Positions 44,228 through 57,076 of a DNA stretch of 64,000 bases are shown here, piece after piece. Position 1 is the first letter of the stretch. Every line of letters begins with the position of its first letter. The position numbers and the translations under genes were made by a program. The notes under the pieces are model-generated. The model did no database searches. It was given only the letters and a program-made list of their open reading frames with translations, and had not been told where the DNA came from. Origin of the DNA: a virus (taxonomy: Duplodnaviria; Heunggongvirae; Uroviricota; Caudoviricetes); the IMG/VR virus record IMGVR_UViG_3300020577_013140, positions 84,381-148,380 of that record; one strand, written 5' to 3'.

Positions 44228-45124
44228 TTATTGTTTGATGATGGCCGCCAACCCAAGGTCGTCCTGGTGCTTCCAGCCTTTCTTGGGCCAGACGCGGGTG
44301 GAGTTGAACAGCATTTTCCGACGGAGGATATTTCCCCTCGAACCAACCGGGAATTTCAGCAGGTCAGCTGCGATCTCTTGGTGGAACTTCACGTTGTCGC
44401 CGAAAGACCCGATACCGTCCGATGACACCACCAGGCTTCGTAGGCGGTTGAAGTCAAAGTCCAAAACCACTGGTGGACGCCCGAACGTGTGCAGTTCTTC
44501 ACGGCTGAGCTCCCAGGTATCGCCGGATGATGGACGCAGCACATGTAGCGTGTCTTCCCGGATCGGGTTGCAGGCTCCATAGTTGCGCAGACGGTCTTCG
44601 TTTTGTGGTAATTGATACGCCAGGTAGAACGGGCCGCTGCGTTCCACACGTTCCAGCGTGATGGTATATTCAGAGCGAAATACCTCTGTCGTATCATCCA
44701 GATAGTCGGCGCCGACGTAGCCATCGCCGTACATGAACGCAAAAGCGCGATCTTTGTATTGTGCCGCCAGAACCAGCGTACAATCCATGAACAGCGGTCC
44801 TAAGAATGCGCCTTCATTCAGCATGGCGTAAACCCCAGCCAGCTGGGATATCAGCCTTGCCCGAAACTCCAACTCGAGGGATGTAGCGCTCGCCGTAGGC
44901 TCAGCCATGAGCCTCTGAGGCAGCCACTCCTTAAGAATACGCCCGGCTGTCAATACCAGCAGCCTGGCACCGACATCACTGTTTGGCGCCGACGAACAAC
45001 CGTCCGATACGAGGGCAATACGCAGGTCGCCGTCGGAAAATCCGTGAGCGTAGTCCTGGCAACCGTGTTCCAAATGGAGCAGGGATGCTCCCTGCAAAGT
45101 GAAATAGTCCGTTATGATGCTCAT
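44228..45124 (-). CDS. PP2C-like phosphatase
   Basis: QGASH-like QGASLLH...CQDY, ALVSDGCSSA..SDVGARLL, DCTL, VVSSDGI, HQDD; start trimmed to ATG at 45124. Confidence 0.85.
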   Translation of the reverse strand: MSIITDYFTLQGASLLHLEHGCQDYAHGFSDGDLRIALVSDGCSSAPNSDVGARLLVLTAGRILKEWLPQRLMAEPTASATSLELEFRARLISQLAGVYAMLNEGAFLGPLFMDCTLVLAAQYKDRAFAFMYGDGYVGADYLDDTTEVFRSEYTITLERVERSGPFYLAYQLPQNEDRLRNYGACNPIREDTLHVLRPSSGDTWELSREELHTFGRPPVVLDFDFNRLRSLVVSSDGIGSFGDNVKFHQEIAADLLKFPVGSRGNILRRKMLFNSTRVWPKKGWKHQDDLGLAAIIKQ

Positions 45125-45203
45125 GTCTAAAGAAAAAGTGAAGGGTGAAAATGAAAACAGGGGCAGCCGGCCGTAGCCGGCCACCCCTATTGGTGAAAGC
45201 GCC

Positions 45204-45992
45204 CTAGATGGTCAAGGACGTCGGCATCGTCTTGCTCGGCCCACCGGAGCCGAGTGCCTGTGCAGTCGAGCTGACCGACTGGCTGACGAAATTGAGAAGC
45301 TTGGCGATCTTGCCCCGGTTGGCAGTCGGACCGCCAGCATTGAGGTGTCCCACAGCCAGGGTCAAGTCGATCTTGCACTTGACGCGCACGTCCTCCAGGT
45401 ACCTGCCGAACGCCGGGTCATTCGTCAGACCGATGAGGACGATTTGAGAACTCTCCAAGGACTCACCGCTAACCGCCATTTCGTTGGCGCGTGCGACATC
45501 ACCTGCACCACAGCCATGACCGGAGTCTTCACCGTCAGTCACGACGATCGTGATGGCGTTGGCTATGTAGGCCTGCTGAGCCAGGATGTGTGCGTAAGCC
45601 ACCGAGGCTTCAACACTTTGCCGCATGGCGTCGAACAGCGCGGTATTTCCGCCGGGATTGAGAATACCGTCGTAATCGTGTTCGTTGATGGAGTTGATCG
45701 GCTTGAAGCCATGCACCTCCTGTACGTCCTGGTTGAAGACCACAAGACGCACCAACTGACTGTTGGCGGTCGGATCCTTCTTGCAGGCACCGATGATTTC
45801 CTTGAGGATGAACTCGAGGGTGTCCTTGAACGAGTACACCGAGCCGCTCACATCGATGATGATCGTGACGAGGGTGTACTTGCTTGCCAGATTGGCTAGC
45901 GAGCTCAGGTCGACAGCGCTGTATTGAAACGACGACGCAGTCATGAGCTGAGACATGGCGACGTCCCCAGCGGGAAGAAGAGAGGAATTCAT
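45204..45992 (-). CDS. terY: von Willebrand factor A domain protein (TerY-like)
   Basis: MIDAS motif IIIDVSGSV, GNTALFDA, IVVTDGED; adjacent to PP2C and kinase genes. Confidence 0.75.
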   Translation of the reverse strand: MNSSLLPAGDVAMSQLMTASSFQYSAVDLSSLANLASKYTLVTIIIDVSGSVYSFKDTLEFILKEIIGACKKDPTANSQLVRLVVFNQDVQEVHGFKPINSINEHDYDGILNPGGNTALFDAMRQSVEASVAYAHILAQQAYIANAITIVVTDGEDSGHGCGAGDVARANEMAVSGESLESSQIVLIGLTNDPAFGRYLEDVRVKCKIDLTLAVGHLNAGGPTANRGKIAKLLNFVSQSVSSTAQALGSGGPSKTMPTSLTI

Positions 45993-46030
45993 AGATAGTT
46001 GAATCTTCTGCGTGATGTTGACGGTTCCGT

Positions 46031-46840
46031 TCAGATCAGGAACTTATCCGAGGTCGTGAGGGTGACGCCACGATGACGCATGTCGTCCAGGAAGTCGTCC
46101 GCCAACTTCTTGGCAATCGGCACCGGGGACATGAGGTCGGTGAGGATCACGAACTTGCGGACTTCAGCGTCCGAGAAGTTCGCGGCGATGTCGCGCACCG
46201 TGTTGGCCACGCAGTGCGACGAGGCCTCGCCGGTGATGACCAGCTGGTCAGCCATACCGAGGGCGCGCAGCAGGTTGGCGTTGAGCTTCGTCGTGGGATC
46301 CTGCGGGATCTGGACGTCCGCTTGCATGGCCGAATAGTGCTCCGTGAGGGGCTGACTGCCCTTGGGAACATAGTTCACCGAACGCAGGGTAGTGCGCGAC
46401 CAGTCGGCCAACGCATCCCAGATCTCCGGCACGATGTTGGAGCCTTCATGCCCGATGCGGCAGTGCTCAGGCCACACCATGAGGTCGTACCGGCCGTTGG
46501 TCTTGAGAGACTGGACGTAGTTCTCGAACCAGGGCTGATGCTCAGGCTTGACAGCGCGCCACACCCCGGTCTTCACGTCGTCGACGGTGATGGTCGTAAA
46601 CGGCGGAGGAGGCTGGCCATTCTTTCCCACCCACATGCAGGCGTGCGCAATGTGCGGCACCTGATGGGAGTCGAGGGTCAGGTGGAACATGTCAACCTTG
46701 GGCCCGATACGGCGGATGAATTTGGCCATGCGGACGGCGTCGGCGTCGGCGCCGGGCACGAAAAGCGCACCGGTGGGGCGGCAGAAGTCATTTTGCCAGT
46801 CAATGCCGAGGACGTGTAGTTTCAGACGATTGGAACTCAT
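46031..46840 (-). CDS. pncA: nicotinamidase / isochorismatase-family cysteine hydrolase
   Basis: IDWQNDF, LDSH, WPEHC, KG...TEHYS, GEASSHCV (Asp-Lys-Cys triad). Confidence 0.8.
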   Translation of the reverse strand: MSSNRLKLHVLGIDWQNDFCRPTGALFVPGADADAVRMAKFIRRIGPKVDMFHLTLDSHQVPHIAHACMWVGKNGQPPPPFTTITVDDVKTGVWRAVKPEHQPWFENYVQSLKTNGRYDLMVWPEHCRIGHEGSNIVPEIWDALADWSRTTLRSVNYVPKGSQPLTEHYSAMQADVQIPQDPTTKLNANLLRALGMADQLVITGEASSHCVANTVRDIAANFSDAEVRKFVILTDLMSPVPIAKKLADDFLDDMRHRGVTLTTSDKFLI

Positions 46841-47071
46841 TTTGAGGGGTGGTTGATGTAATGTTTATGTTTTTTCCGATGCACCCGGGGCGATGCCCCG
46901 GATCTTAAAAAGTGCTTGTAGAGCGACCACAATTACACCGACAACAATGACGGCGCTTGTGGATTGGAATATGAAGAAGATCAGCAGTGCTGCAAAAAGT
47001 GCAGCTGCGGCGGAGTTGACGTTCACGGTTATCCTTGTGTGTAAACGAAGATCTGATTATGATTCGCCTGT

Positions 47072-47485
47072 ATGTCAACGCATCACGAGTTACCATTCTT
47101 GCTCGGAGCTTTTTTTAGTCGGTTAACGTTGAACGAGGCGGACCAACTTCGTCATGGGTTAGTCGTCACACTACCGGTCACCAAAAAGTGGATTGCCATA
47201 AAACTGCAGAAAGCAATTGGTGGTAGCGTGTTTACAAGGAACAACGGCAAGACCCAATCAGTCTGTCTTACCATAAAAGCGAGACCCGACCTCACTCGAT
47301 TAAGGGCAGCATTGTTGTGGTACTCGGATTCTTTACCTGGGTTGCGCCCATTGATCCGTCTATTGGACCGGTACCAGAAGAACGCAGTCAAAGATATCCG
47401 ACCACGAAGAAAAAAGCCGGCAAGTACTCGTGAATACCTGCCGGCTTCGGTTACCTCCGTCGATTGCTGTCAGTGGGTGTCCTGA
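47072..47485 (+). CDS. hypothetical protein, weak resemblance to a single LAGLIDADG-like domain
   Basis: FLLGAFFS helix, KLQKAIGGSV, V.LTI.AR.DL..L pattern; lone plus-strand ORF filling a gap. Confidence 0.4.
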   Translation: MSTHHELPFLLGAFFSRLTLNEADQLRHGLVVTLPVTKKWIAIKLQKAIGGSVFTRNNGKTQSVCLTIKARPDLTRLRAALLWYSDSLPGLRPLIRLLDRYQKNAVKDIRPRRKKPASTREYLPASVTSVDCCQWVS

Positions 47486-48339
47486 TCGCCATCGTCGACT
47501 TCGCCGCTGGCGAGGATGACCCTCTCCATGCGCTGGGCTGGAGTCATATCCGCCACGTACCGGCCGGCCTGCCAGGCCAACAGGCGACCACTCTTTGCGT
47601 CCACCACAAACGTGATGGTCCGGGCCTGGTGCAATGGGGCGTTCTCATTGACGAGCACCGGCTTGAGTTCGCGCTGCACGCCTTCCGCCGTGACGACAGG
47701 CATCTCGATGAAATCCGGCTTGGTGCCGTTGCGAAGCAGCGTGACCCAGGGGCCCCATTCACTGCCGGTGCCGGGGACCTTGGTGTAAACGACGGGCGGC
47801 ACTTCCGGGGGGAGTTCCTTGGCCTGCCCTGCGGCGACGGCGTCACGAATGAGCTCCCAATTCCGACGCTTCTCTGCCAGAGCGGCATCTTTCCGCTCAT
47901 AGTACCGAACCAGCGGATCCAGCTTCACGTCACCGGCGTACGCGCTCCACCCACGGGGCACGGCAAAGAAGAAGAGCAGACGGTTGCCGTGGTCGTAGGT
48001 CTTCGCCGTGGTAAGCCGGTGCAGGGAGTAAATCAAGGAGCGCAGTCCTTCCACCGAGGCGACACGAACACCTGTGGCGGTGGTGACGAACCCTGTGGCG
48101 GAGGCGCCGTTGACGAGGAGTTGCAGCTGCTTCGTGCGGTCAGGCTCTTCGAGCTGGGAAATGTGACGGAGTGCTTCCCCCAACCCGTTGACCACGAGTT
48201 GCCGGGCCTGGGATTCAGTGATCTTGGAAGGTTCAGCGCGACGAGGATGGTTGGGCTTGTAGTCGACACGACCCTGAACTACGGTTGAAGCGGCCGGAGC
48301 TGAGGCGACGGCGGGAATGGGAGCTGTGAGAGTGTTCAT
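47470..48339 (-). CDS. hypothetical protein
   Basis: 289-aa ORF; start trimmed to ATG at 48339. Confidence 0.75.
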   Translation of the reverse strand: MNTLTAPIPAVASAPAASTVVQGRVDYKPNHPRRAEPSKITESQARQLVVNGLGEALRHISQLEEPDRTKQLQLLVNGASATGFVTTATGVRVASVEGLRSLIYSLHRLTTAKTYDHGNRLLFFFAVPRGWSAYAGDVKLDPLVRYYERKDAALAEKRRNWELIRDAVAAGQAKELPPEVPPVVYTKVPGTGSEWGPWVTLLRNGTKPDFIEMPVVTAEGVQRELKPVLVNENAPLHQARTITFVVDAKSGRLLAWQAGRYVADMTPAQRMERVILASGEVDDGDQDTH

Positions 48340-48389
48340 GATAAATTTGAGAATACTGCAATTAACTACCAAGCTAAAAATATACAGAA

Positions 48390-48424
48390 GGGGAGGAACT
48401 CCGGCAATCGCCGGAATCCCTCCC
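48390..48424 (-). terminator. probable terminator downstream of the TROVE gene
   Basis: GGGAGG..TCCGG/CCGGA..CCTCCC hairpin followed by a U-rich tract on the minus strand. Confidence 0.6.
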
Positions 48425-48443
48425 TGGTTGAACGTCTGAAAGG

Positions 48444-50114
48444 CTATTCGCCGTCTGCTTCGTTGAGCGCCTGGAAATCCACCTGGGTGACCTCGTGAAC
48501 GAGGGCCGAAGGATTCTTACGGAGCTCAGTCAGCAGGGCGAATATCTTGTCTGAGAAACCAGACAGAACAGCCACGGAGTCTTCCGGGAACATCATCGTT
48601 TTAGACCCCGTGAGGTCAAACATGACGATGAAAGGAAGAACCTTGTGGCGCTGTTCATACTGGCGTCTTGCGGCAGTCGGCGCGCCGGCTTGCGAGTCCC
48701 AGCTGTCACCGAACTGCCAACCTTCACCGTCCGACAGGATGATGATGTTGTCGTATCCAGTGGTGGCAGCTTCGAATATGGAATGGAAGTTGGTGGAGCC
48801 TCCGTTCCAGTTCTGACGTATGTCATTCAACGTCGCGAACAGCGACATATTCGTGCGGATCGGCTTGTAGGTAGCTCGGTTCGCGAATGACATGAAGTGA
48901 GCACCGGGTTGGCTCTTGAGCACGATTGCCGCGAACAGCGACCCGATGTTTGCAGGAGAGCGGTCAGTCTCGACACCCCCCATTGATGCAGACTCATCCA
49001 GCGCAACCAGGGTACGCCCTGGGAGTTTCGGAATGTTTCGGCACGACAAGGCGACGGCTTCCTCAATTGCGTCAGCGACCACCCGCGAATGCACGAACCC
49101 AGAGGCAAGGACTTCCTTGTAGGCACGTACAAACTGGAATGGAAGGATCAACGAATTCTCCACCGCCTTGGGGTTGGTGATGAACTCACAGACCTGAGGG
49201 ATTACTTCAGGTGCCTGCTCCAGGATGTTCCGGAGGTTGCGCAGGGTGGCGAAGTAACCGAGTTTCCGCTCCGCCACCAGCTCACGCCAAACCTGGGCCT
49301 TCTTCGCCGGGTCGGAGCCTGCAGCCGAAAGGCGTGCTTCCCACGTGTCGACGTTCTTCAACTCGCCACGTACGAACTGTCGGAAAGCCTCAGCGTTCTC
49401 GGGCGTCGGCTTCGGGTGTACGAGGTTGAACACGTCAACCAAGGAAATCGCCTGACCGGTCTTCTGGTACTTGGCCAGCCGATAGCCATCGAGCTTGGAC
49501 AGCGCGGCGGCGATACCCTTCTTCAAGGGATATGGTAGCGTCACTGGGACCTTCTTGCCTCGCTTGCCTCCGGGCTTACGGATGGTCTTGCCTCCGCCGA
49601 AGAACGCGAAGTAGGCCGCCACAATTTCCAGGGCGTCATCCGGGCGGTAAATCACGGACTCGACAAACTGCTTGACCCAGGTCTCGCCCTTGCCCTTCGT
49701 GTAGTAGCAGACCAAGGCCGCCACAGCGTGGGAAATGGACCGAAGGCCGAGTACGCGGCGCGCCCACACAGCGGCCTGAGCAGCGAAGCGAGGGCTGTGC
49801 TTGACGAGGGTCTTCAACCGCTCAAGCGTCTGGGCTTCGCTCTCATAGAACTTCCCTTTAGGCTCATGCAGCAGGGTGGTGAAGATGAGCGACAACAGCT
49901 CGAAAGCTGGGCTCTTCCGGAAAGCCTTTCCACCCGCTGCGTTGACCGTGTCGGTCTGTGCGTGGTGATGAGGCATGACGGTGGTAGCGGCCGGTGGCGA
50001 TGGCGGGATCTGACCGACCAGCGAGGTCGCCGAACGCGACCGTGCTCGTTGCGACTGCGAAGAGAGCGCAGGCTGGGTTGGAGTTGTGTTGAGTGAGGAG
50101 CTGAACTTAGCCAT
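48444..50114 (-). CDS. rsr: Ro60/Rsr TROVE-domain RNA-binding protein with C-terminal vWA domain
   Basis: DTVNAAGGKAF N-terminal motif, TWEARLS, LGYFATLRNLRN, ILPFQFVRAY, VALDESASM, TNF..IF, IILSDGEGW. Confidence 0.92.
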   Translation of the reverse strand: MAKFSSSLNTTPTQPALSSQSQRARSRSATSLVGQIPPSPPAATTVMPHHHAQTDTVNAAGGKAFRKSPAFELLSLIFTTLLHEPKGKFYESEAQTLERLKTLVKHSPRFAAQAAVWARRVLGLRSISHAVAALVCYYTKGKGETWVKQFVESVIYRPDDALEIVAAYFAFFGGGKTIRKPGGKRGKKVPVTLPYPLKKGIAAALSKLDGYRLAKYQKTGQAISLVDVFNLVHPKPTPENAEAFRQFVRGELKNVDTWEARLSAAGSDPAKKAQVWRELVAERKLGYFATLRNLRNILEQAPEVIPQVCEFITNPKAVENSLILPFQFVRAYKEVLASGFVHSRVVADAIEEAVALSCRNIPKLPGRTLVALDESASMGGVETDRSPANIGSLFAAIVLKSQPGAHFMSFANRATYKPIRTNMSLFATLNDIRQNWNGGSTNFHSIFEAATTGYDNIIILSDGEGWQFGDSWDSQAGAPTAARRQYEQRHKVLPFIVMFDLTGSKTMMFPEDSVAVLSGFSDKIFALLTELRKNPSALVHEVTQVDFQALNEADGE

Positions 50115-50144
50115 ATTGGGTTATGTCAGTGATTGAGGTTGAAT

Positions 50145-50196
50145 AGGGTCGACGGGGTATTTCGTAGATAGAAGTATCCGTCAGTGTTACATCCCT
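50145..50196 (-). ncRNA. Y-RNA-like unit 1 (minimal)
   Basis: AGGG-AUGUAAC...GACGG/CCGUC...GACCCU; closest unit to the Ro60 start; lacks an exact GUUCAUC. Confidence 0.5.
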
Positions 50197-50366
50197 CTAA
50201 AAAAATGCATCGGGCACCGCCAACGCTCTAGGTCGTTGTCGTTAAACGCCGTTTCCACGGTGGCCAGTTCGAGGATCTTGAACGACTGCAGTAAGGTCCT
50301 CCGCGACCGATGCTCCTGCCTCAATGGGTCTCGAGAGCGAGACCCAGAGTTTGCAGGTAAATGAAA

Positions 50367-50442
50367 CCGGGCGAAAAATAGACTTGTGAATTTTTGTTTC
50401 AGCGATAATGCAGAAGATGAATCACAAACCGTTACGTCCCGG
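50367..50442 (-). ncRNA. Y-RNA-like unit 2 (short cargo)
   Basis: CCGGG-ACGUAAC-GGUUUGUGA-UUCAUC...UUCACAAGUC-UAUUUUUC-G-CCCGG. Confidence 0.7.
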
Positions 50443-50459
50443 AAAATGGAAAAGGGGAA

Positions 50460-50527
50460 TGCGGAGAAAAGGAGTACCAGCGGGGGTTATCGTGGAATGA
50501 TGAACCGCTGGAAAAGTTACTTCCGCA
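50460..50527 (-). ncRNA. Y-RNA-like unit 3 (short cargo)
   Basis: UGCGG-AAGUAAC...CCAGCGG-UUCAUC...CCGCUGG...UUUUC-U-CCGCA. Confidence 0.7.
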
Positions 50528-50535
50528 AAGTGATA

Positions 50536-50600
50536 GGGGAGAAATGATGTTTGTGGGTTTTTTCTTAAACGCAAGATGAACCACAGACTGTTACTTCCCC
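50536..50600 (-). ncRNA. Y-RNA-like unit 4 (short cargo)
   Basis: GGGG-AAGUAAC-AGUCUGUGG-UUCAUC...CCCACAAAC...UUUC-U-CCCC. Confidence 0.7.
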
Positions 50601-50610
50601 AAAAGGAAAA

Positions 50611-50742
50611 GAGAGTGAAAAATTACCAGGAAGTTGTTTTCTCTACCATTGAGCTACGGCGGCATTTGAGCCGCCGGTGGGAATCGAACCCACGACCTTG
50701 TATTTTGCGGTACATGATGAACTCCTGATGGTTACATCTCTC
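50611..50742 (-). ncRNA. YrlA-like Y RNA unit 5 with a circularly permuted tRNA domain
   Basis: scaffold plus T arm GUGGG-UUCGAUU-CCCAC, acceptor CGGCGGC/GCCGCCG capped by a 6-nt loop, then D arm UAGCUCAAUGGUAGAG. Confidence 0.85.
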
Positions 50743-50765
50743 AAAATCGAAAAGTGTCTGGTTAA

Positions 50766-50825
50766 GGGCAAACATGGAAAAAGGAGACTGCAACAATCGG
50801 CTGCCTGTCTATTACATGTTTGCCC
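50766..50825 (-). ncRNA. Y-RNA-like unit 6 (variant, long terminal stem)
   Basis: GGGCAAACAUG-UAAU-AGAC...GUCU-CCUUUUUC-CAUGUUUGCCC; lacks GUUCAUC. Confidence 0.55.
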
Positions 50826-50981
50826 ACCTCGTCAGTGGAACCAGCACCACTATGAACACCCCTCACAGATGTTTGTCCGGAAGGTTTGATAGCGACTAAA
50901 CCGGGGCGCATTGTATCGGAATCGCTGCCCGTTCGAGTATCCGGTCTGTAGCCGGCGCCGAAGCGCTACAAGTCGCTAAAT

Positions 50982-51058
50982 TGGTAGCGGGGGCTGGATT
51001 TGAACCAGCGACCTCTTGGTTATGAGCCAAGCGAGCTACCAGGCTGCTCCACCCCGCA
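50982..51058 (-). tRNA. tRNA-Met(CAU), initiator-like, CCA encoded
   Basis: UGCGGGGUGGAGCAGCCUGGUAGCUCG...CUCAUAA...GGUUCAAAUCC...ACCA; 1:72 mismatch and A11-U24 pair. Confidence 0.93.
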
Positions 51059-51166
51059 ATCGAAAGAATGTTCCCGGCCATGGCCGGGTGAGATGGAGTC
51101 CGGCCCCATCGACTGGATGTTTCACGCCCGTCGCCTCCGGTTAAAGAGGTATCCAGTCAAAAAGAA

Positions 51167-51305
51167 TCCAAGGCGAATAAATTGTACGAGCTACATTTTG
51201 AACAGCTGCTCTTCCACTGAGCTATAGATGCCAAAGACACCTAGGTGGATTCGAACCACCGACCAGCTGTGGGATTGATGGACGTCGTACGGTTACGTCC
51301 TTGGA
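51167..51305 (-). ncRNA. YrlA-like Y RNA unit 7 with a circularly permuted tRNA domain
   Basis: UCCAAGG-ACGUAAC...GUCCAUC; ACAGCU/AGCUGU stem at the anticodon-stem position, T arm GGUGG-UUCGAAU-CCACC, capped acceptor, D arm UAGCUCAGUGGAAGAGC. Confidence 0.85.
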
Positions 51306-51312
51306 AAGGGAA

Positions 51313-51446
51313 TGAGGAGAAAAAGCGAAAGACATTTGTTAGGTGCTCTAACCGCTGAGCTATCCTGGCGTCTAATGCCAGGAGTGGGATTCGAACCCAC
51401 GACCACCCGCTTTACATGCGATGAACGTCTTTCAATTACTTCCTCA
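51313..51446 (-). ncRNA. YrlA-like Y RNA unit 8 with a circularly permuted tRNA domain
   Basis: UGAGG-AAGUAAU...GUUCAUC; T arm GUGGG-UUCGAAU-CCCAC; UCCUGGC/GCCAGGA capped acceptor; D arm UAGCUCAGCGGUUAGAGC. Confidence 0.85.
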
Positions 51447-51454
51447 AAAGTGAA

Positions 51455-51586
51455 TGGAGAGAAAAAGTGAACCTCATTTTTTAGTGTGCTATCCGTTACA
51501 CCACCAGCCCGTCAAATGGGCCAGCCAGGAATTGAACCTGGACCACTCGTTCCATATACGATGAACGAGATTCTATTACTTCTCCA
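51455..51586 (-). ncRNA. YrlA-like Y RNA unit 9 with a circularly permuted tRNA domain
   Basis: UGGAG-AAGUAAU...GUUCAUC; T arm CCAGG-UUCAAUU-CCUGG; CUGGCCC/GGGCUGG capped acceptor; D arm UGGUGUAACGGAUAGCAC. Confidence 0.85.
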
Positions 51587-51605
51587 AAAGTCAAAGAGCT
51601 TGATT

Positions 51606-51750
51606 GCTCTCTTGGCATTCCAGGATGCGTTCGTTGTAGTGTTCAGCTCGTGTACTGGTAAAGGTCCTTTTTCTCGGAGCTTACCTGTCATTTGCAGAAC
51701 TCTTAGTCTGTAGAAACAGATGAACGACCTAAAAAGAATGCCAAGGGGGC
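51606..51750 (-). ncRNA. structured RNA related to the Y-RNA-like units (variant)
   Basis: ~15-bp terminal stem GCCCCCUUGGCAUUC/GAAUGCCAAGAGAGC and a GUUCAUC motif, but no GUAAY. Confidence 0.45.
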
Positions 51751-52130
51751 AATCAACGCCTCCTATTATGGAGGCTTGCTGAAAATTGTCAACCCCCTAT
51801 TTAAGGAGGCGATAGGAGTGTTGCCGGTTCCAAAGGCCACTATTCGTGACTCATCGAAACCGAGCAAAAAACGCCAAGCCAGTGAAGCAAGGCACGTCAT
51901 TTGTTCACCTCGCACTACCAAGGTGTTTTTGTCGACGCCAACAACACTCCATTTGGGGGGCGAGGTGTTAACCAGGCCGCCTGCCACCAGCTGTATTTGA
52001 CCGATGAGGTTAGGCATACAGCAGCCGACTGTCAGATGCACTGACAGATTGAGCACTTGCCCCTTAGTCCGCGGCGTACCGCAGGTCAGAGTTTCGCGAT
52101 CCTTATTTCATGATCAGGGTGCTCAAAAAT

Positions 52131-52281
52131 TGGTGTGCGAGGCGGGACTTGAACCCGCATAGCCCTCACGAACAGGTTGGTGCCTGCTTGAGTCGGTATG
52201 GGCATCCCCGGATACCACTCCGGAGCGTATCTCACCTACAATCCCTTTGGTTATTTGTTCCCTCGGGGTGACGGCTCGCAC
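52131..52281 (-). ncRNA. 151-nt tRNA-like RNA with canonical acceptor, T arm and CCA but an atypical enlarged core
   Basis: GUGCGAG/CUCGCAC-ACCA acceptor, GCGGG-UUCAAGU-CCCGC T arm and a long variable-arm-like hairpin; no recognisable D or anticodon arm. Confidence 0.5.
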
Positions 52282-52286
52282 AAAGT

Positions 52287-52552
52287 CCGTGGATGAAAAG
52301 ATGCAACGAGGTATTGGGTGTAATGACCGGACTCTCGCCCTGCCTCCCTCAACCTGCACTGTCGCAGCAGGTGTGCGGAGAACCTATGGTGGATTCTCAT
52401 TGCCGTACTTACAGAGAAGACAACCGAGGTTGCCTGTCCTGGACGCAATAGGTTAGTTTTGCGAACAGCCAAAGGAGCCTGCCCGTACCGTCCCGCCCCC
52501 TCTTTGTGGTATGCTTTTAATTAGATGAACTCGTTTGCGTTACGTTCCACGG
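52287..52552 (-). ncRNA. long Y-RNA-like unit 10 (266 nt) with a ~210-nt inserted domain
   Basis: CCGUGGA/UCCACGG terminal stem, ACGUAAC, GCAAACGAG/CUCGUUGC second stem, GUUCAUC and CUUUUC-A motifs. Confidence 0.7.
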
Positions 52553-52628
52553 CAGCCTGACAGGTAAAAAAATTCACCCACCGGGCCGTTGTTGCGTAGG
52601 CACCTATTGCTAAGTGCGTTCGCAAGTT

Positions 52629-52637
52629 ATTATACCA
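52629..52637 (-). promoter_or_regulatory. extended -10 promoter (TGGTATAAT) upstream of the RNA array
   Basis: perfect TGnTATAAT on the minus strand, intergenic, ~75 nt upstream of unit 10. Confidence 0.55.
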
Positions 52638-52671
52638 GGGTAAGGCCCTCCCCTACAAGGGGGGGTGGGGG

Positions 52672-53190
52672 TTAATCCCCAGATACAGAAACCCCCAGGA
52701 TCTCCACCATGAAGTTCCTTACCGGCTGGCTAAGGAATGTACCACCCATAACCGGATCCCGTACTATCACTCCTCCAGTCGCCTGCTCCCCCCTTGGAGG
52801 GGCGTAACCGGACTGGTGATATGTGGTCACCCAGACCATGCCTACCAGATAGGTGGAGAGACAAAAGGCCGTCTTTAGATGCAAGTCAGTTATAAACCCC
52901 TCTCCCTGACAATAGGCCTCCCGTAGAGGACACTTCAACCATTTTGCTGGGTCCACCAAGGCAGCCAGGTTTAGGGTGCCTTTACCGCCCAACGATACAC
53001 AGTGGAAGTACGGTTCGGTGTAGCGCAAGCTCAGCCTTTCGGCCAGGATAGGATATCGAAATACCGGGAGTTCCTCCCTGGTATCCCGACTGAACAATGG
53101 CTCCTTCACGAACTCCGCTTTCGGTATTTTCGTGAAGGAGGCCAGCTTCTGCAGCAGGGCATGCTCGGCAGCTTTACCTTGAATAGTCAT
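52672..53190 (-). CDS. hypothetical protein
   Basis: 172-aa tiling ORF. Confidence 0.7.
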   Translation of the reverse strand: MTIQGKAAEHALLQKLASFTKIPKAEFVKEPLFSRDTREELPVFRYPILAERLSLRYTEPYFHCVSLGGKGTLNLAALVDPAKWLKCPLREAYCQGEGFITDLHLKTAFCLSTYLVGMVWVTTYHQSGYAPPRGEQATGGVIVRDPVMGGTFLSQPVRNFMVEILGVSVSGD

Positions 53191-53609
53191 AGGCTGATCC
53201 TCCTAGGGGCTTCATCGTAGAAGTCTACAGTGTTTGTTGGAGTACTGGGGCTCGTAGCTCGAGGTCGCGCCGCTCGAGGTCGCACAGCACGCCTTCGTAA
53301 AGGTGCAGGAGGCGTGTCATTGATAGCTTCACCATCTTCGTCAAGGTCAGGTGTGTATTGATTGCGTACAGGTATTTCAACGTACCCTTTTGACACCTTC
53401 TCGCGGCGCGTCTTTTCGTACTCAGCCAATGCACGCTGGTATGTAACACCATCACATTTGGTCACATCCGTCAGCGTGCTGCCGATGCGGCCGTATTGTC
53501 CTCTTACCCTGTACGTGCCGGTCAATTCATTGCTCTCAAGCTCAAGGAGATACTCTTTGCTGTGCCCCCGTGTGGTGCATTCCAACCGTGTACGTTGCAA
53601 TACTGGCAT
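53187..53609 (-). CDS. WGR-domain protein
   Basis: Y.LEL...YRVRGQYGRIG...A...YEK..REKVSKGY. Confidence 0.8.
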   Translation of the reverse strand: MPVLQRTRLECTTRGHSKEYLLELESNELTGTYRVRGQYGRIGSTLTDVTKCDGVTYQRALAEYEKTRREKVSKGYVEIPVRNQYTPDLDEDGEAINDTPPAPLRRRAVRPRAARPRATSPSTPTNTVDFYDEAPRRISL

Positions 53610-53610
53610 A

Positions 53611-54231
53611 TCATAGTCCTTTTCGTTTTGCCCATTCCGCCATCAGCAAGCTATCGGCATCTTTTTTGAACTTCACCAAAGGAAACAACTTCTTGCCTAC
53701 GTCGTAACTGGCTTTCTTTAATTCATCGCGACCAATAATCCCCTTAGGCAGCATCACTGATTGCCACTCCTTGGAATCGACAAACTGGTAATCCAGCCCC
53801 AATAAGTCAGTCACAACCAGTGTCGCTTCCAGTGCCCGAGCTGCGAGCATGGAGGCGTTAAATCCGGCAGGATTACAATAAGGCCGTTCAAGCAGCACAA
53901 TGGCTGTGGCTCCCGCCTGAGTAGGAGAATACACACGATCGTAAAGAATATCGAACAATGCCTCAGCGTCGACACGGTTCAGATGCTTCTCCGTCTTCTG
54001 GTAGTTTCGACAGTGTTTTGTCGGAGTGGCCGCCCAAAAGGGAGGCACACCTGGAGACAAGATCGCAATACTGCCAGATGAGCCGTTGTCTATTCCGCAG
54101 TAAATACGCCTTACCGTAGGCGCAGACGTATCTGCACCTACAGCAGGAGGTTTTTCACCCAGCGGAGACAGGGGGCGTTTTGGCGTTGGCCGGCCCGCTG
54201 TTTTTGGTACTACCGATGATTTCTGCGGCAT
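53611..54231 (-). CDS. ruvC: RuvC-like Holliday junction resolvase
   Basis: YCGIDNGSSGSIA, VLLERP, V..KEWQ, DADSLLMAEW catalytic acidic residues. Confidence 0.8.
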   Translation of the reverse strand: MPQKSSVVPKTAGRPTPKRPLSPLGEKPPAVGADTSAPTVRRIYCGIDNGSSGSIAILSPGVPPFWAATPTKHCRNYQKTEKHLNRVDAEALFDILYDRVYSPTQAGATAIVLLERPYCNPAGFNASMLAARALEATLVVTDLLGLDYQFVDSKEWQSVMLPKGIIGRDELKKASYDVGKKLFPLVKFKKDADSLLMAEWAKRKGL

Positions 54232-54487
54232 CAGCTGGGAACGTTTGAAAGACCAGGTTCGCCTGGTGCTCGAACGGGATCTCTCCGAAGTTACGAACTT
54301 CCTTCTGTGGGAGAGGCGTTACCAACACCGGCTGGTCTTTGGTTGCAGGAGGGACGATTACCTCCCGGATGCGGTTAACCACAGCCGCACGAGACGGGGT
54401 CTTGCTGGCCTTTTTTGTCGCAGCGACTTTCCCCTTTACGACAGCCTTGGTTTTCTTGGCTACTGGACGTTTGGCTTTCTTTTTCAT
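54155..54487 (-). CDS. small protein with a Lys/Ala-rich histone-like N-terminus
   Basis: MKKKAKRPVAKKTKAVVKGKVAATKKASK. Confidence 0.6.
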   Translation of the reverse strand: MKKKAKRPVAKKTKAVVKGKVAATKKASKTPSRAAVVNRIREVIVPPATKDQPVLVTPLPQKEVRNFGEIPFEHQANLVFQTFPADAAEIIGSTKNSGPANAKTPPVSAG

Positions 54488-54717
54488 ACCTCGGCAGACT
54501 TCGCAAGAACCCGGCGCAGAGAAGCGATCTGTCGACCATTAAGTGCGATCTCTGTGGGGCTGCCTTTCTTACCAGTAGGCAGGCGGAGGATCAATTTCTG
54601 TTTACGATGATGTCGCGCATCCGGCAGGATATGTACGAAATACCCACCATCATTTCGAAGCGCGACCGTTGTTTGATAAGCGCCTTGCGGGCGAACTGTT
54701 ACACAGGATTTTTTCAT
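54484..54717 (-). CDS. small hypothetical protein
   Basis: ATGA overlap; tiling. Confidence 0.65.
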   Translation of the reverse strand: MKKSCVTVRPQGAYQTTVALRNDGGYFVHILPDARHHRKQKLILRLPTGKKGSPTEIALNGRQIASLRRVLAKSAEV

Positions 54718-54731
54718 GTTTGAGAATTTGT

Positions 54732-55937
54732 TCAGACCAACGCCACTTGTTTGGCAGTTGGCTCAGGTTCCTCCGTTTTGGAGGCCTTACGTTTCTTCTT
54801 CCTAGTCGCCTCAATTTCAGCGACTTCTTTCTCCGCCGGCAGGTCAGGTATCCCAAAAGCCTTCCGGATTATTTCCTTGGCCTGGGCACTGTTCCTGATG
54901 ACGACAGCCAGCTCAGATTCCCGATACGACTTGTCGCAATCGATAACTGCCGGCTTCTTGGTGGCTGGATCGACGTAGTTCGTGTTAGGAGTCTGCCAGG
55001 TGTAATAGGCACCAGCACGACGAACAACGGATGGGTAATCCTTTGACAACTTGCGAACCAGCGGTGACCACCAATCCATTCCACCATCAATGTAAAGGTC
55101 GACTTCGACCTCTTGATTCTTGCCTTCGCGTCCAAGCTTGTTTCGCTTGCATTGGATACGATGCACAGAACCGATCTTTCGAACGGCTCCATCTTCCCCG
55201 GATGACGCTGCAGTCAGTTCCGCAGTACGGCTCATCTTCAGATGCAGGCTGGAGTGAAAGAACTGTGCTTCCCCGCCGATCAACGCGTCTTGAGCGTCTT
55301 CACCGTAGCCCATGGCGCCGATCTTGGACTTCAGCTGATTCATCATGAGGAATACCGCCTTTTCATTCGCCAACGGCTTTTCCATCTCTCGGAAGAAACG
55401 ACCGAGCAGTCGTGCGTGAATACCAGGCTGCATGTCAGACACAGTATGAGACTGGTCCAACTCGTATTCCACTGTTGCACCAGCAATTGAGTCGAATGCG
55501 ATCAGCACAGGCGTATCGCCCTCAGGATAAGCTTTGGGCAGGTTGCGGATAATCGTCTCCGCGATAGACAGACCCTGTTCGAGGCTGTCGGGATGCAGCA
55601 CCGCCACTCTGGAGAGATCAACGCCTTGCTTCTTGGCGTAGTCCAGGTCAATGGCGTGCTCGGTTTCAATCCAGATTACGTCACCACCTACTCGTTGATA
55701 AAGCTTGGCGAGGTCGTAAAACAAGGATGTCTTTGAGCTACCCTTCTTGCCATAGACAAGAATAAAGCGCCCATAGGCCAGGAAGCGTCGATCAAGCAAA
55801 TATTCCAGCAACGGATTATCCACGATCAACCCAGTAGGAGGAGGTTCCTCACTGGCTGTACGGAACTCGATGTCCGATTCAGGATTCTTCTTTAAGAATT
55901 GCTTCCGGCTTAGTTCTAGTAAGTCTTTGAATGCCAT
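54732..55937 (-). CDS. recA: RecA/UvsX-like recombinase
   Basis: Walker A GKKGSSKT, IETEHAID...GVD, Walker B IAFDSIAG, NQLKSKIG, GGEA..F. Confidence 0.88.
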   Translation of the reverse strand: MAFKDLLELSRKQFLKKNPESDIEFRTASEEPPPTGLIVDNPLLEYLLDRRFLAYGRFILVYGKKGSSKTSLFYDLAKLYQRVGGDVIWIETEHAIDLDYAKKQGVDLSRVAVLHPDSLEQGLSIAETIIRNLPKAYPEGDTPVLIAFDSIAGATVEYELDQSHTVSDMQPGIHARLLGRFFREMEKPLANEKAVFLMMNQLKSKIGAMGYGEDAQDALIGGEAQFFHSSLHLKMSRTAELTAASSGEDGAVRKIGSVHRIQCKRNKLGREGKNQEVEVDLYIDGGMDWWSPLVRKLSKDYPSVVRRAGAYYTWQTPNTNYVDPATKKPAVIDCDKSYRESELAVVIRNSAQAKEIIRKAFGIPDLPAEKEVAEIEATRKKKRKASKTEEPEPTAKQVALV

Positions 55938-55990
55938 ATTTGAAAGTCAGGGAGGGTCCCCACACTCGTGAGGACCCATTTGTGCAACCG

Positions 55991-57076
55991 TTAGACTGGG
56001 CGACCAGCTTGCAGGAACTCACGTGCCTGGTCAAGCGTGAATGGAGGCGGGCCTCCAACTGGGGCGCTCATCGGGTTGCTGGCGCTAGCTGCCTGAACCT
56101 GCGGTAGCGGGCGATCGGCCTGCACTGGCGCCGTAGGCACCATGGCGCGAGGAATCGGGGCCGCCGTAGGCATCGGCATCGGCGCCGGCCCTGGCCGGCT
56201 TACTGGGATATTTCCATTTGCCGTAGGAATGCTGGCCGATGGAATACCTGAAGGAGCAGGAACCGGCAGAGTCGCACCTGAGACACTGGCTGCGCTGCCC
56301 CCAATGACTGTTCCGTTGGGCATCTGGTAACCCTGCATGCACCGGTTGAAGATCTCGGCAGGAACAAAGCTGTGGAGCTTCTCCACGAGATACTCGATTT
56401 CCGGGTAATGAACTACCTCGTCCAGGTTATAGAGGTAGTTTGCATCAGCCAACTCAGGAGGCAGCGGGTAGGTCCTGGAGGCCTCAGGTGTCACCACCCA
56501 AGGTTGTCCCACAGCGTCCTTCTTCAATTGAATGAACACCGGAATTGCGGCATTTGGGTCATTCAATAGTGGAGCTTCCGAACCGTCAGGCATACGGCGA
56601 CGGTGCCATGCCTCGATATGCTCACCACCACCAAACTGAGGCAGGGTGAGGACATGCGCACCAAGGCTGAGGTCACGCATGTAGGCCACATTAAACAGCA
56701 CCTTGTTGGCCGGACGACCAAATGGCGGGTAACGTTTCACCTGGCGGCCATTCTGACTGACTTGCTCAACGCGAGCGTAATCCGGGTAGAACTGCTTAAC
56801 CCGGCCGGCGAAATACGCCACGGGGCAATTGCGCGGGATTGAGAACGTCTCCTTCACATCGATACCGAAGTTGTCGCGAACGGCGAGAACCTTCCACGAC
56901 ACACCGCGCCCCATGGCGTCAGCCTTGTATGGAGGGAGGATGAAGAAGAAGTTGCCTTCCTTATTTCGGTCATCTCGAAAATTGATGACGCGGATGCCGT
57001 CTTTGAGGGTTCGCCCGAAGACGTTAGTACTGAGGTCGCTCCCATCAAAGGAACGAGAAGGTGTAATTACAGCCAT
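55991..57076 (-). CDS. probable single-stranded DNA-binding / recombination mediator protein (gp32-like)
   Basis: directly upstream of RecA; F.ILPP...CPV...VLFNV pattern with a Pro/Ala-rich tail. Confidence 0.5.
   Translation of the reverse strand: MAVITPSRSFDGSDLSTNVFGRTLKDGIRVINFRDDRNKEGNFFFILPPYKADAMGRGVSWKVLAVRDNFGIDVKETFSIPRNCPVAYFAGRVKQFYPDYARVEQVSQNGRQVKRYPPFGRPANKVLFNVAYMRDLSLGAHVLTLPQFGGGEHIEAWHRRRMPDGSEAPLLNDPNAAIPVFIQLKKDAVGQPWVVTPEASRTYPLPPELADANYLYNLDEVVHYPEIEYLVEKLHSFVPAEIFNRCMQGYQMPNGTVIGGSAASVSGATLPVPAPSGIPSASIPTANGNIPVSRPGPAPMPMPTAAPIPRAMVPTAPVQADRPLPQVQAASASNPMSAPVGGPPPFTLDQAREFLQAGRPV

What the first reader, a model, noticed from the sequence alone, without database searches (positions are those of the whole stretch)
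50145..52552. Array of ~10 Y-RNA-like scaffolds with interchangeable cargo directly upstream of a phage Ro60 gene
Seen: the 2.4-kb gap upstream of the TROVE gene has no credible CDS. On the minus strand it holds ten units (50145-50196, 50367-50442, 50460-50527, 50536-50600, 50611-50742, 50766-50825, 51167-51305, 51313-51446, 51455-51586, 52287-52552). They share the architecture 5'-terminal stem-ANGUAAY-second stem-GUUCAUC-[cargo]-second stem'-UUUC-N-terminal stem'. Eight carry the GUUCAUC-type motif. The stems differ in sequence between units while remaining complementary, and most units are preceded by a U-run. Cargo ranges from a small hairpin to a permuted tRNA to ~210 nt. An extended -10 promoter (52629-52637) sits upstream. 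Established: Ro60/Rsr binds Y RNAs through their terminal stem; bacterial Y RNAs (YrlA/YrlB) are encoded next to rsr, usually as one or two copies, and can tether Ro60 to effectors such as PNPase. Inference: this is a polycistronic library of Ro60 adaptor RNAs that lets one phage Ro60 ring be loaded with many different modules. I do not know of such an expansion having been described.
Basis: partly seen in the sequence, partly recalled or inferred. Interest (0 to 1): 0.95.

Follow-up and report, generated by a model that had tools for sequence, protein, structure and literature searches.

The report
Phage Ro60 with ten Y-like RNAs
A roughly 200-kb freshwater/wastewater phage carries, just upstream of its Ro60 (RNA quality-control ring) gene, a conserved 2.4-kb island of about ten small structured RNA genes that share one folded "handle" but carry different bodies. 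This is far more Y-RNA-like partners than any published Ro60 system I could find, although binding to Ro60 has not been shown.

Summary
The gap between the TROVE/Ro60 gene (48444-50114, minus) and the next gene contains ten units on the Ro60 strand with the architecture S1 / A-N-GUAAY / S2 / UUCAUC / body / A-rich / S2' / UUUUC-N' / S1'. Four bodies are YrlA-type tRNA mimics (sub-threshold Rfam YrlA hits). Five units are bare hairpins, and one carries about 210 nt that match no Rfam family.

The stems covary strongly across 80 units from 13 loci. Models built from the units hit only this gap: nowhere else in the 182-kb phage, and not in 0.7 Mb of control contigs.

The array, its unit order and an internal promoter are conserved in ten related phage contigs (Ro60 57-84% identical). 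A variant of the same handle lies upstream of about 40%-identical Ro60 genes in two viral contigs and 47 of 79 loci from bacterial-genome bins. Ro60 is the only neighbouring protein these loci share.

The most likely reading is a co-transcribed family of Ro60-bound Y RNAs. The canonical GNCGAA Ro60 motif is absent, Rfam's YrlA threshold is not met, and neither expression nor binding is shown.

I found no paper describing such arrays. This scan has noted similar arrays in other phages, including a related genome. I class it as a new variant of a known kind.

The parts
52629..52658 (-). Promoter P1: TTGTAG, 18-nt spacer, TGgTATAAT (extended -10 at 52637-52629), upstream of unit U1
   Evidence: Read from the sequence. 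The block 52563-52698 is 82-93% identical to relatives, against ~70-78% for the array. The consensus scan did not list it because the -35 is weak.
52287..52552 (-). U1: handle unit (CCGUGGA/UCCACGG, ACGUAAC, S2, UUCAUC, AUCUUUUCA) with a ~210-nt body matching no Rfam family
   Evidence: The handle is seen weakly by model R1 (16.9 bits). The body matches no Rfam family. L129 has a homologous body. L124, L125, L128 and L133 hold a different ~250-nt body in the same slot.
51765..51792 (-). Promoter P2: TTGACA, 16-nt spacer, CATAAT (11 of 12), in front of the main array
   Evidence: A TTGAC[AT] -35 is present at the same position in all 9 relatives that cover it, followed by a recognisable -10 in most.
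51611..51745 (-). Ux: leader element closed by CUUGGCAUUC/GAAUGCCAAG, with UUUUUAGGUCGUUCAUC inside and no GUAAY
   Evidence: The same closing stem plus CAUUCUUUUUAGCUCG follows P2 in the relatives.
51455..51586 (-). U2: handle unit with a YrlA-type tRNA-like body (V hairpin, T arm, AS stem, D arm)
   Evidence: Model R2, 131 bits; covariation.
51313..51446 (-). U3: handle unit with a tRNA-like body
   Evidence: R2 141 bits; Rfam YrlA 35.9 bits, E 1.7e-5.
51167..51305 (-). U4: handle unit with a tRNA-like body; variant motifs GUCCAUC and AUUUAUUCG
   Evidence: R2 79 bits; Rfam YrlA 37.6 bits, E 5.8e-6.
50982..51058 (-). Genuine tRNA-Met (CAU) embedded in the array
   Evidence: ARAGORN; Rfam tRNA 63.5 bits; present at the same place in relatives.
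50766..50825 (-). U5: variant unit with a 12-bp closing stem, GUAAU, a small hairpin and CCUUUUUC; no UUCAUC
   Evidence: 7 loci aligned, 7 of 12 pairs covary.
50611..50742 (-). U6: handle unit with a tRNA-like body
   Evidence: R2 109 bits; Rfam YrlA 30.3 bits, partial. The orthologous handle in L126 carries only 26 nt.
50536..50600 (-). U7: bare handle hairpin (loop UUCAUC...GAAAAAACC)
   Evidence: R1 73.8 bits.
50460..50527 (-). U8: bare handle hairpin
   Evidence: R1 50.4 bits.
50367..50442 (-). U9: bare handle hairpin
   Evidence: R1 55.3 bits.
50199..50313 (-). E3: conserved ~107-nt structure closed by GCAUCGG.../...CCGAUGC and followed by a U-run (terminator-like); no handle
   Evidence: Terminator-like site. 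Conserved in 5 relatives, but not as one reading frame.
50134..50197 (-). U10: divergent handle unit (GAUGUAAC, AUACUUC, CCUAUUCAA) ending 19 nt before the Ro60 start codon
   Evidence: R1 10.8 bits with filters off. Orthologues lie 21-30 nt before the start codon in 8 relatives, and in 4 of them score 25-33 bits.
48444..50114 (-). Ro60/Rsr homologue, 556 aa (TROVE ring plus vWA)
   Evidence: Pfam TROVE 1.3e-18 and vWA_Ro60 1e-4; PHROG 850 'RNA-binding protein' 1e-42; PDB 9KOP/9L5Y phiLo Ro60 1e-22.
52049..52127 (-). E1: conserved ~80-nt three-way-junction RNA (closing stem GAGCAC/GUGCUC, invariant GAAACUCUGA and ACUAAGGGGCAAG); no handle and not in Rfam
   Evidence: Conserved in 7 relatives; 12 of 26 pairs covary; no Rfam match.
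52131..52283 (-). ~150-nt tRNA-like RNA with a 7-bp acceptor stem, T arm and encoded CCA; found in this phage only
   Evidence: Read; only the T arm is detected; absent from relatives.
50878..50975 (-). E2: ~100-nt structured block just after tRNA-Met, 92% identical to L125 and L126
   Evidence: no Rfam match.

Best explanation
The gap is an RNA island that encodes a family of Y-RNA-like partners for the phage's own Ro60 ring.

Two promoters drive it. P1 lies at about 52640 and the conserved P2 at about 51780. They produce multi-unit precursors, because the spacers are only 7-23 nt and pyrimidine-rich (AUUCcCUUUU). Host nucleases presumably cut these precursors into unit-length RNAs.

Each unit closes on itself through a conserved handle:
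- a 5-bp stem;
- a bulged A;
- a covarying N-N' pair;
- an invariant G-C pair inside GUAA/UUUC;
- a second 8-bp stem;
- the invariant single-stranded UUCAUC, opposite an A-rich strand.

I infer that this handle is the Ro60 docking site. It would replace the GNCGAA/GGUCCGA motif of known Y RNAs.

The body is the effector side, and there are three kinds:
- Four units display a YrlA-type tRNA mimic (T arm, acceptor-like stem, D arm, small V hairpin).
- Five are bare handles that could simply occupy or gate the ring.
- One carries a ~210-nt structured RNA.

By analogy with Ro60-Y RNA-PNPase particles, the RNAs would tether or gate Ro60 towards host enzymes during infection. The phage itself encodes no PNPase (RNase PH-domain) enzyme, RNase II/R or RtcB.

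The last unit (U10) ends 19 nt before the Ro60 start codon. It may also let Ro60 regulate its own mRNA.

Shown here: the sequence architecture, covariation, conservation, and exclusive association with Ro60 genes. Inferred: transcription units, processing, Ro60 binding, and function.
For: 1. Protein. The gene is a Ro60 homologue: Pfam TROVE plus vWA_Ro60, and PDB phiLo Ro60 at 1e-22.

2. Match to YrlA. Rfam YrlA is the only non-tRNA family with E below 0.001 in the gap: U4 37.6 bits, U3 35.9, U6 30.3. The same holds in relatives, at 29-46 bits.

3. Covariation. In 37 tRNA-like units, 98.6% of cells are paired against 42-47% when slid. 27 of 31 pairs change on both sides, and the score is 0.861 against 0.262 shuffled, 0 of 500 shuffles. 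In 43 small-model hits, 92.3% are paired against 40-53%, and 13 of 14 pairs change. A MAFFT alignment that was not fitted to the structure gives 26 of 31 pairs with compensatory changes.

4. Specificity. All 51 R1 hits and 65 R2 hits in 231 kb lie on the Ro60 strand in the upstream gap. There are none elsewhere in the 182-kb phage. There are none in 694 kb of unrelated viral contigs that contain the linear motif by chance.

5. Conservation. Ten syntenic phage contigs (Ro60 57-84% identical) keep the gap, the unit order and promoter P2.

6. Association with Ro60 alone. Two viral contigs with 35-41%-identical Ro60 have 2 and 4 units of the same architecture, and they share no other protein with this locus. 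47 of 79 loci from bacterial-genome bins with ~40%-identical Ro60 have 1-4 full-length R2 hits. Of the 72 hits, 71 lie upstream on the same strand, and they carry the handle YAG(U/C)RA...UUACUUC...UUUUCU.

7. Modularity. In L126 the U6 handle carries 26 nt in place of the tRNA-like body. The first slot holds two alternative large bodies in different relatives.

8. Published precedent. Y RNAs are modular: a Ro60-binding stem plus an effector module, which is tRNA-like in YrlA (PMC4201824; bioRxiv 10.1101/312249). Phage phiLo Ro60 binds two upstream Y-like RNAs and host PNPase (PMC12135203).
Against: - No unit reaches Rfam's YrlA gathering score of 69 bits.
- The motif thought to mediate Rsr/Ro60 binding, GNCGAAN0-1G or CGAA, is absent from the 5' part of all 80 aligned units. 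The region holding the experimentally bound phiLo Yrl RNAs shows no such handle. The docking role of this handle therefore rests on co-occurrence alone.
- One Ro60 relative at 38% identity (L001, a huge phage) has no detectable unit.
- The loops of the small units are not conserved between orthologues, so they may carry no specific cargo.
Confidence: 0.75

Rival explanations
1. The handle is a processing or stability cassette, not a Ro60 site. It would be a conserved double-stem punctuation that host RNases recognise to excise and protect the RNAs of a polycistronic transcript, much as tRNAs punctuate operons. Ro60 would be merely a neighbour, or would bind only some of the products.
For: Units are packed with short, conserved pyrimidine-rich spacers. 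A genuine tRNA and other handle-less RNAs sit in the same transcription units. The known Ro60-binding motif is absent.
Against: The handle is found only next to Ro60 genes in every locus examined, across 35-84% protein identity, while all other neighbouring genes change. A pure processing signal for host enzymes would be expected around the phage's other 35 tRNAs too, and none is found there. Bare handle units with non-conserved loops would have nothing to deliver.
Confidence: 0.1
2. The tRNA-like units are primarily decoys or sponges for host tRNA-directed enzymes, such as anticodon nucleases, tRNA-modifying enzymes or defence sensors. Ro60 would act as their chaperone or stabiliser rather than being steered by them.
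For: Four units keep the T arm, D arm and acceptor-like stem that tRNA enzymes recognise; YrlA is modified by TruB and DusA (PMC4201824). The phage invests heavily in tRNA biology: 36 tRNA genes and a CCA-adding-type enzyme at 41071-42489. The V hairpins have 7-nt loops, and some have a U33-like position.
Against: The units have no anticodon stem; the handle stem occupies that position. Six of the ten units have no tRNA-like part. This idea is not exclusive of the main explanation, and nothing here tests it.
Confidence: 0.1
3. The region is decayed tRNA-array debris or a repeat expansion without function.
For: The bodies are tRNA-derived in appearance, and related loci in bacterial-genome bins are full of tRNA genes.
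Against: Compensatory changes keep 92-99% of stem positions paired across 80 copies. The loop motifs are invariant. Unit order and a promoter are conserved across phages whose array DNA is only ~70-80% identical.
Confidence: 0.02

Closest known systems
Bacterial and phage YrlA Y RNAs with Rsr/Ro60 (Rfam RF02553; Chen et al. [quoted passage not shown]
   Same: The RNAs are encoded within 4 kb of a Ro60 gene and on its strand. They are modular: a stem formed by the 5' and 3' ends plus an effector module. Four units have the YrlA order V hairpin, T arm, acceptor-like stem, D arm, with conserved T- and D-loop sequences, and Rfam's model aligns them end to end.
   Different: Scores are about half of Rfam's threshold. 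The GNCGAAN0-1G motif is missing. An extra outer stem and the GUAAY/UUUUC element lie outside the Rfam model, whose first stem corresponds to S2. The count here is ten units against the 355 RNAs in 276 genomes reported in 2014. Six units have no tRNA-like module.
Thermus phage phiLo Ro60 with Yrl1 and Yrl2 (PMC12135203; PDB 9KOP, 9L5Y)
   Same: It is a phage-encoded Ro60, and the closest solved relative of this protein (E 1e-22). Its Y-like RNAs are encoded directly upstream of the gene. Binding to Ro60 and to host PNPase has been shown.
   Different: It has two RNAs, identified through CGAA motifs. Its upstream region shows none of the GUAAY / UUCAUC / UUUUC handle.
Salmonella YrlB and Deinococcus Yrn1/Yrn2: Y RNAs without a full tRNA-like module
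   Same: The bare-handle units U5 and U7-U10 resemble these in being a closing stem plus a loop, without a tRNA mimic.
   Different: They share no sequence motif. The loops here are short (20-30 nt) and not conserved between orthologues.
Vertebrate Y RNA families (two to four paralogues per genome)
   Same: Several paralogous RNAs share one Ro60-binding stem and differ in the loop module.
   Different: Those are separately transcribed Pol III genes with the GGUCCGA bulged helix. Here there are ten units in two operon-like transcription units.

Membership tests
Ro60/Rsr protein (TROVE ring + vWA) | TROVE (HEAT-repeat ring) domain followed by a vWA domain | tested here: met
   Pfam TROVE 67.9 bits (cut-off 23). 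vWA_Ro60 scores 22.8 bits, just under its 27.7 cut-off. Full-length match to phiLo Ro60 structures 9KOP/9L5Y at E 1e-22, and to Rsr 2NVO and Xenopus Ro60 1YVP at about 1e-6.
YrlA (Rfam RF02553) | Score at or above Rfam's gathering threshold (69 bits) | tested here: not met
   Best scores in the window are 37.6, 35.9 and 30.3 bits. Relatives reach 29-47 bits.
YrlA (Rfam RF02553) | Encoded within 4 kb of the Ro60 gene, on the same strand | tested here: met
   All units lie 20-2440 nt upstream of the start codon on the minus strand.
YrlA (Rfam RF02553) | tRNA-like domain: conserved T and D stem-loops with an acceptor-like stem between them, and a V region upstream | tested here: met
   Met for U2, U3, U4 and U6 only. 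T arm GGUUCRAnUCC is invariant. The 7-bp AS helix covaries at 7 of 7 pairs and the D arm at 3 of 4. The V hairpin shows CGC/GCG, CGA/UCG, CGU/ACG and UGUA/UACA.
YrlA (Rfam RF02553) | GNCGAAN0-1G motif near the 5' end (proposed Rsr contact) | tested here: not met
   0 of 80 aligned units have it in the first 45 nt. In the window's handle units (U1-U10) CGAA occurs only in the T loops of U3 and U4 and in the loop of U10, never in the handle.
Y RNA (functional class) | Bound by Ro60 in vivo or in vitro | not testable with these tools
The only support is exclusive co-occurrence with Ro60 genes.
Y RNA (functional class) | Long stem formed by the 5' and 3' ends, containing a conserved element, plus a variable second module | tested here: met
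   S1 and S2 covary. GUAA, UUCAUC and UUUUC are 90-100% invariant. The bodies vary.
Y RNA (functional class) | Expressed as a discrete small RNA | tested here: inconclusive
   Only assembled contigs of metatranscriptomes were available. They cannot show RNA ends or levels.
tRNA | Cloverleaf with an anticodon arm, detected by ARAGORN or Rfam tRNA | tested here: not met
   Only 50982-51058 is a tRNA. The units have the order T, AS, D and no anticodon arm.

The most novel reading that the evidence does not exclude
This phage lineage has turned Ro60 into a multi-adaptor platform. One ring protein would be served by about ten co-transcribed RNAs that dock through a new handle, unrelated to the GNCGAA/GGUCCGA site. 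These would present at least three kinds of effector module: tRNA mimics, empty 'gate' hairpins, and a ~210-nt structured RNA of a class not in Rfam, exchanged for another large RNA in sister phages. The last handle would act as an operator in the Ro60 mRNA leader. The island would then be a phage-encoded, evolvable RNA-guided targeting system for host RNA metabolism, not merely a few extra Y RNAs.
Probability: 0.25. Interest if true: 0.85.

Novelty: new variant of a known kind. Interest (0 to 1): 0.62.

Why it matters
Ro60-Y RNA particles are conserved from bacteria to humans, and Ro60 is a major lupus and Sjögren autoantigen. Even so, what the variable half of a Y RNA is for remains largely open. 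Only PNPase tethering is understood in bacteria, and the role of the tRNA mimicry in YrlA is unknown.

A phage lineage that keeps about ten paralogous units under selection offers a natural dissection of handle against module. Its units share one covarying handle, their bodies are swapped or deleted between sister genomes, and the phage encodes no nuclease partner of its own.

The locus also defines a Ro60-associated handle lacking the motif so far used to find Y RNAs. Motif- or Rfam-based surveys therefore under-count Y RNAs in Bacteroidota, Verrucomicrobiota and their phages.

Several further conserved RNAs in the same island (E1, E2, E3, and the U1 bodies) match no Rfam family.

Tried and rejected
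- Expression. I laid contigs from four metatranscriptome runs on 46000-56000. The phage, at 99-100% identity, is covered at about 3-10x over genes and array alike. This could be mRNA or carried-over DNA, and contigs cannot show RNA ends or levels. One contig from a ~90%-identical relative carries tRNA-like units flanking a tRNA-Met and has depth ~370 in one run, but that relative's gene depth is unknown. I draw no conclusion on expression.
- Pattern scan of IMG/VR with GAAGTAAY-N(8-11)-GTTCATC. It gave over 100 single chance matches. None is a unit by model R1, so I used them as a negative control.
- L001, the huge phage LR745206 (Ro60 38% identical). It has no unit by regex, Rfam, R1 or R2.
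- phiLo upstream region, read for the handle: none seen.
- Rfam with lax filters on the U1 body, E1 and the 151-nt tRNA-like RNA: nothing beyond a T arm.
- My strict regex and stem finder missed most units because of bulges. I replaced it with covariance models.
- Small ORFs in the gap. tblastn matches only reflect RNA conservation, and the 45-aa candidate is frame-inconsistent between relatives.
- Phage-encoded effectors. No RtcB, RNB or RNase PH domain is found in the 182-kb record, which is about 83% complete.
- Two reviews (PMC10870794, PMC6542706) and the supplement of Chen et al. 2014 are not held in the library. I therefore could not check the largest Y RNA count per genome in the published tables.
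- From memory, human Y1 and Y4 contain GGUAGUGA...GUUAUC, which resembles the GGYAGUGA...GUUACUUC handle seen in the bacterial-bin loci. I did not test this and give it no weight.

Full report
**What is there**

The window is part of a 182,660-bp IMG/VR virus record, about 83% complete. The 556-aa ORF at 48444-50114 (minus strand) is a Ro60/Rsr homologue. Pfam gives TROVE at 1.3e-18 and vWA_Ro60 at 1e-4. PHROG 850 matches at 1e-42. The closest solved structure is the Thermus phage phiLo Ro60 (9KOP/9L5Y, E 1e-22), ahead of Deinococcus Rsr and Xenopus Ro60.

Between its start codon (50114) and the next gene (52672-53190) lie 2.55 kb with no conserved reading frame.

**Checking the observation**

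GTAAY-N(8-10)-[GAT]T[TC]CATC occurs eight times on the minus strand between 50416 and 52543. There are four looser matches elsewhere in the window. Each of the ten proposed units folds with its ends paired.

The shared architecture, from alignments of 80 units, reads:
- S1 (about 5 bp), then A, then N;
- G-U-A-A-Y, with G, U and the second A invariant and the first A at 95-97%;
- S2 (about 8 bp);
- UUCAUC (81-100% per position);
- the body, then an A-rich stretch;
- S2', then R-C-y-UUUUC, then N', then S1'.

N and N' covary (AU 19, CG 9, UA 8), and the G of GUAA pairs with an almost invariant C. The 'internal loop' is therefore partly a conserved helix.

U5 lacks UUCAUC and U10 has divergent motifs, but both have orthologues. 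U10 is better placed at 50134-50197. Nearly every unit is preceded by a U-run inside a spacer of about AUUCcCUUUU. The extended -10, TGGTATAAT, is at 52637-52629 as stated.

**Is it more than chance?**

I built two covariance models: R1 from ten small units and R2 from eleven tRNA-like units.
- Over 231 kb (the window plus 13 loci), all 51 R1 hits and 65 R2 hits lie on the Ro60 strand in the gap upstream of the Ro60 gene.
- The rest of the phage genome has none.
- 694 kb of unrelated viral contigs that contain the linear motif by chance have none.
- In 37 tRNA-like units, 98.6% of stem cells pair, against 42-47% when the 3' partner is slid by 1-3 columns. 27 of 31 pairs change on both sides. 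The covariation score is 0.861 against 0.262 in shuffles (0 of 500).
- In 43 R1 hits, 92.3% pair against 40-53%, and 13 of 14 pairs change.
- These two alignments were fitted to the models. However, plain MAFFT alignments give 11 of 14 and 26 of 31 compensated pairs.

**Identity of the bodies**

U2, U3, U4 and U6 contain, in order, a small V hairpin, a T arm (GGUUCRAnUCC), a 7-bp acceptor-like stem and a D arm. This is the YrlA layout, not a novel permutation. Rfam's YrlA model aligns U4, U3 and U6 at 37.6, 35.9 and 30.3 bits (E 6e-6 to 7e-4), below the 69-bit gathering score. In those alignments Rfam's first stem corresponds to S2, so S1 and the GUAAY/UUUUC element lie outside the published model.

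U7, U8 and U9 are hairpins whose loop begins with UUCAUC and ends with GAAAAnCC. The middle of the loop is not conserved between orthologues.

U1 encloses about 210 nt that match no Rfam family.

**Relatives**

Sixteen proteins 57-100% identical to the Ro60 exist in public data. Ten of their contigs were fetched. All share the same gene order: RecA, small ORFs, WGR protein, a 172-aa protein, a 1.6-3.6-kb gene-poor gap, Ro60, a 300-aa protein, and further on PP2C, a 575-aa protein and a PolyA_pol/HD (CCA-enzyme-like) gene.

The gaps hold 5-9 model-detected units each, in a conserved order:
- three tandem tRNA-like units;
- tRNA-Met;
- a U5-type unit;
- a fourth tRNA-like unit;
- about three small units;
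- a unit abutting the Ro60 start.

Promoter P2 (TTGACA-16-CATAAT at 51792-51765) is conserved in all nine relatives that cover it: the TTGAC[AT] -35 is present in each, followed by a recognisable -10 in most. So is a leader element closed by ...GACAUUC/GAAUGUC....

**Association with Ro60**

Two viral contigs whose Ro60 is only 41% and 35% identical have four and two units upstream of the gene. Their handle reads GG-YAGURA...UACUUC...UUUUCU-CC. tblastn shows that Ro60 is the only protein of this neighbourhood present there.

A scan of one genome per prokaryotic species found 215 loci with relatives of this Ro60. The best 80 were kept, one of them being L126's contig. Of the other 79, mostly bins labelled Saprospiraceae, Opitutaceae and other Bacteroidota or Verrucomicrobiota, 47 have full-length R2 hits. 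Of the 72 hits, 71 lie upstream on the gene's strand, with 1-4 per locus within the 3-kb flank. They carry the same handle plan.

These loci also stay below Rfam's threshold, at 35-47 bits, and several sit inside dense tRNA arrays. R1-type bare units are almost absent from them. The handle therefore tracks this Ro60 subfamily. The expansion to about ten units, and the bare units, are features of the phage clade.

**Modularity in evolution**

In L126 the unit in the U6 slot has 5' and 3' halves nearly identical to U6 orthologues, but 26 nt in place of the 89-nt tRNA mimic. The first slot after P1 varies between genomes:
- a type-A body in the window and L129;
- an unrelated ~250-nt type-B body, with a variant 3' loop AGUAAUCG, in L124, L125, L128 and L133;
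- nothing in L126, and no recognisable U1-type unit in L130 or L132.

**What is not established**

The proposed Rsr-binding motif GNCGAAN0-1G (PMC4201824) and the CGAA motif used for phiLo (PMC12135203) are absent from the 5' part of all 80 units. The phiLo Yrl region shows no such handle. One 38%-identical Ro60 (L001) has no units.

RNA-library contigs cover the phage evenly at low depth and cannot show ends or levels. Binding, processing and function are inferences.

**Mechanism proposed**

Two operon-like transcripts (P1, then P2) would be cut in the pyrimidine-rich spacers. Each unit would dock on Ro60 through the handle. The tRNA-like, bare and large bodies would then tether or gate the ring. 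The effectors would be host enzymes, because the phage record encodes no RtcB, RNB or RNase PH domain. It does have 35 further tRNAs elsewhere and a CCA-enzyme-like gene.

A terminator-like structure (E3, 50313-50199) precedes U10. U10 ends 19 nt before the start codon here, and 21-30 nt before it in eight relatives. It is therefore a candidate operator for autoregulation. This last point is speculation.

**Comparison with what is known**

Modular Y RNAs, YrlA tRNA mimicry, and phage Ro60 with two upstream Y-like RNAs are all published. Four full-text searches found no paper describing arrays of this size or this handle.

Earlier notes of this scan describe similar Ro60-linked arrays of 4-17 units in other phages, including an eight-unit array in a genome related to this one. 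Within the scan, then, this is a recurrence and not a first sighting.

**Verdict**

This is a new variant of a known kind.

Noticed in passing
window 52131-52283 (-): A ~150-nt RNA with a 7-bp acceptor stem, a perfect T arm and an encoded CCA end, but about 65 nt too long for a tRNA. It is absent from all ten relatives. In three wastewater metatranscriptome runs, a contig that runs on into unrelated sequence on both sides matches it at ~95% identity with depth 220-350. A near copy therefore exists in another, abundant organism or element.
   Followed up: partly
window 52049-52127 (-): E1, a conserved ~80-nt three-way-junction RNA with invariant GAAACUCUGA and ACUAAGGGGCAAG. It is present in 7 relatives, 12 of 26 pairs covary, and it has no Rfam match. 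It could be a riboswitch-like or leader element of the island.
   Followed up: partly
window 50878-50975 (-): A ~100-nt block directly after tRNA-Met is 92% identical to L125 and L126, much more conserved than the surrounding array (~70-78%). It has a closing stem AGCGACU/AGUCGCU and a GCGC-UUCG-GCGC hairpin.
   Followed up: no
window 50199-50313 (-): E3, a conserved ~107-nt structure closed by an 11-bp-class stem and followed by a U-run. It looks like the array's terminator. An overlapping 45-aa ORF is not frame-conserved.
   Followed up: partly
L124:2978-3272, L125:2498-2796, L128:3093-3392, L133:2968-3268: The type-B first unit of sister phages carries a ~250-nt body with long invariant stretches (for example UUGGAAUCC, GGGUUCCCGGAUACUGGAGUACCGU) and matches no Rfam family. 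Its handle has GUAA on both strands.
   Followed up: partly
L164, L144, L156, L186, L213 and others (loci from bacterial-genome bins): Ro60 genes of this subfamily sit inside dense arrays of 10-20 tRNA genes, some on multi-megabase contigs (for example an 8.9-Mb Opitutaceae chromosome). These may be prophages or tRNA-array islands.
   Followed up: no
G000:C1:37396-61482 (outside the window): The phage carries a separate island of 35 tRNA genes about 75 kb from the Y-like array. None of them is flanked by the handle.
   Followed up: partly
window 41071-47000 (-): Downstream of Ro60, conserved in synteny, lie an isochorismatase-like protein, a vWA protein, a PP2C phosphatase, a 576-aa protein with no match in Pfam or PHROGs, and a PolyA_pol/HD (CCA-adding-type) enzyme.
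   Followed up: no
window 50115-50133 (-): The Ro60 start codon is not preceded by a Shine-Dalgarno-like sequence (CCUCAAUCACUGACAUAACCCAAUAUG). This fits a Bacteroidota-type host. One sister contig is binned as Sediminibacterium, but binning of phage contigs is unreliable.
   Followed up: no
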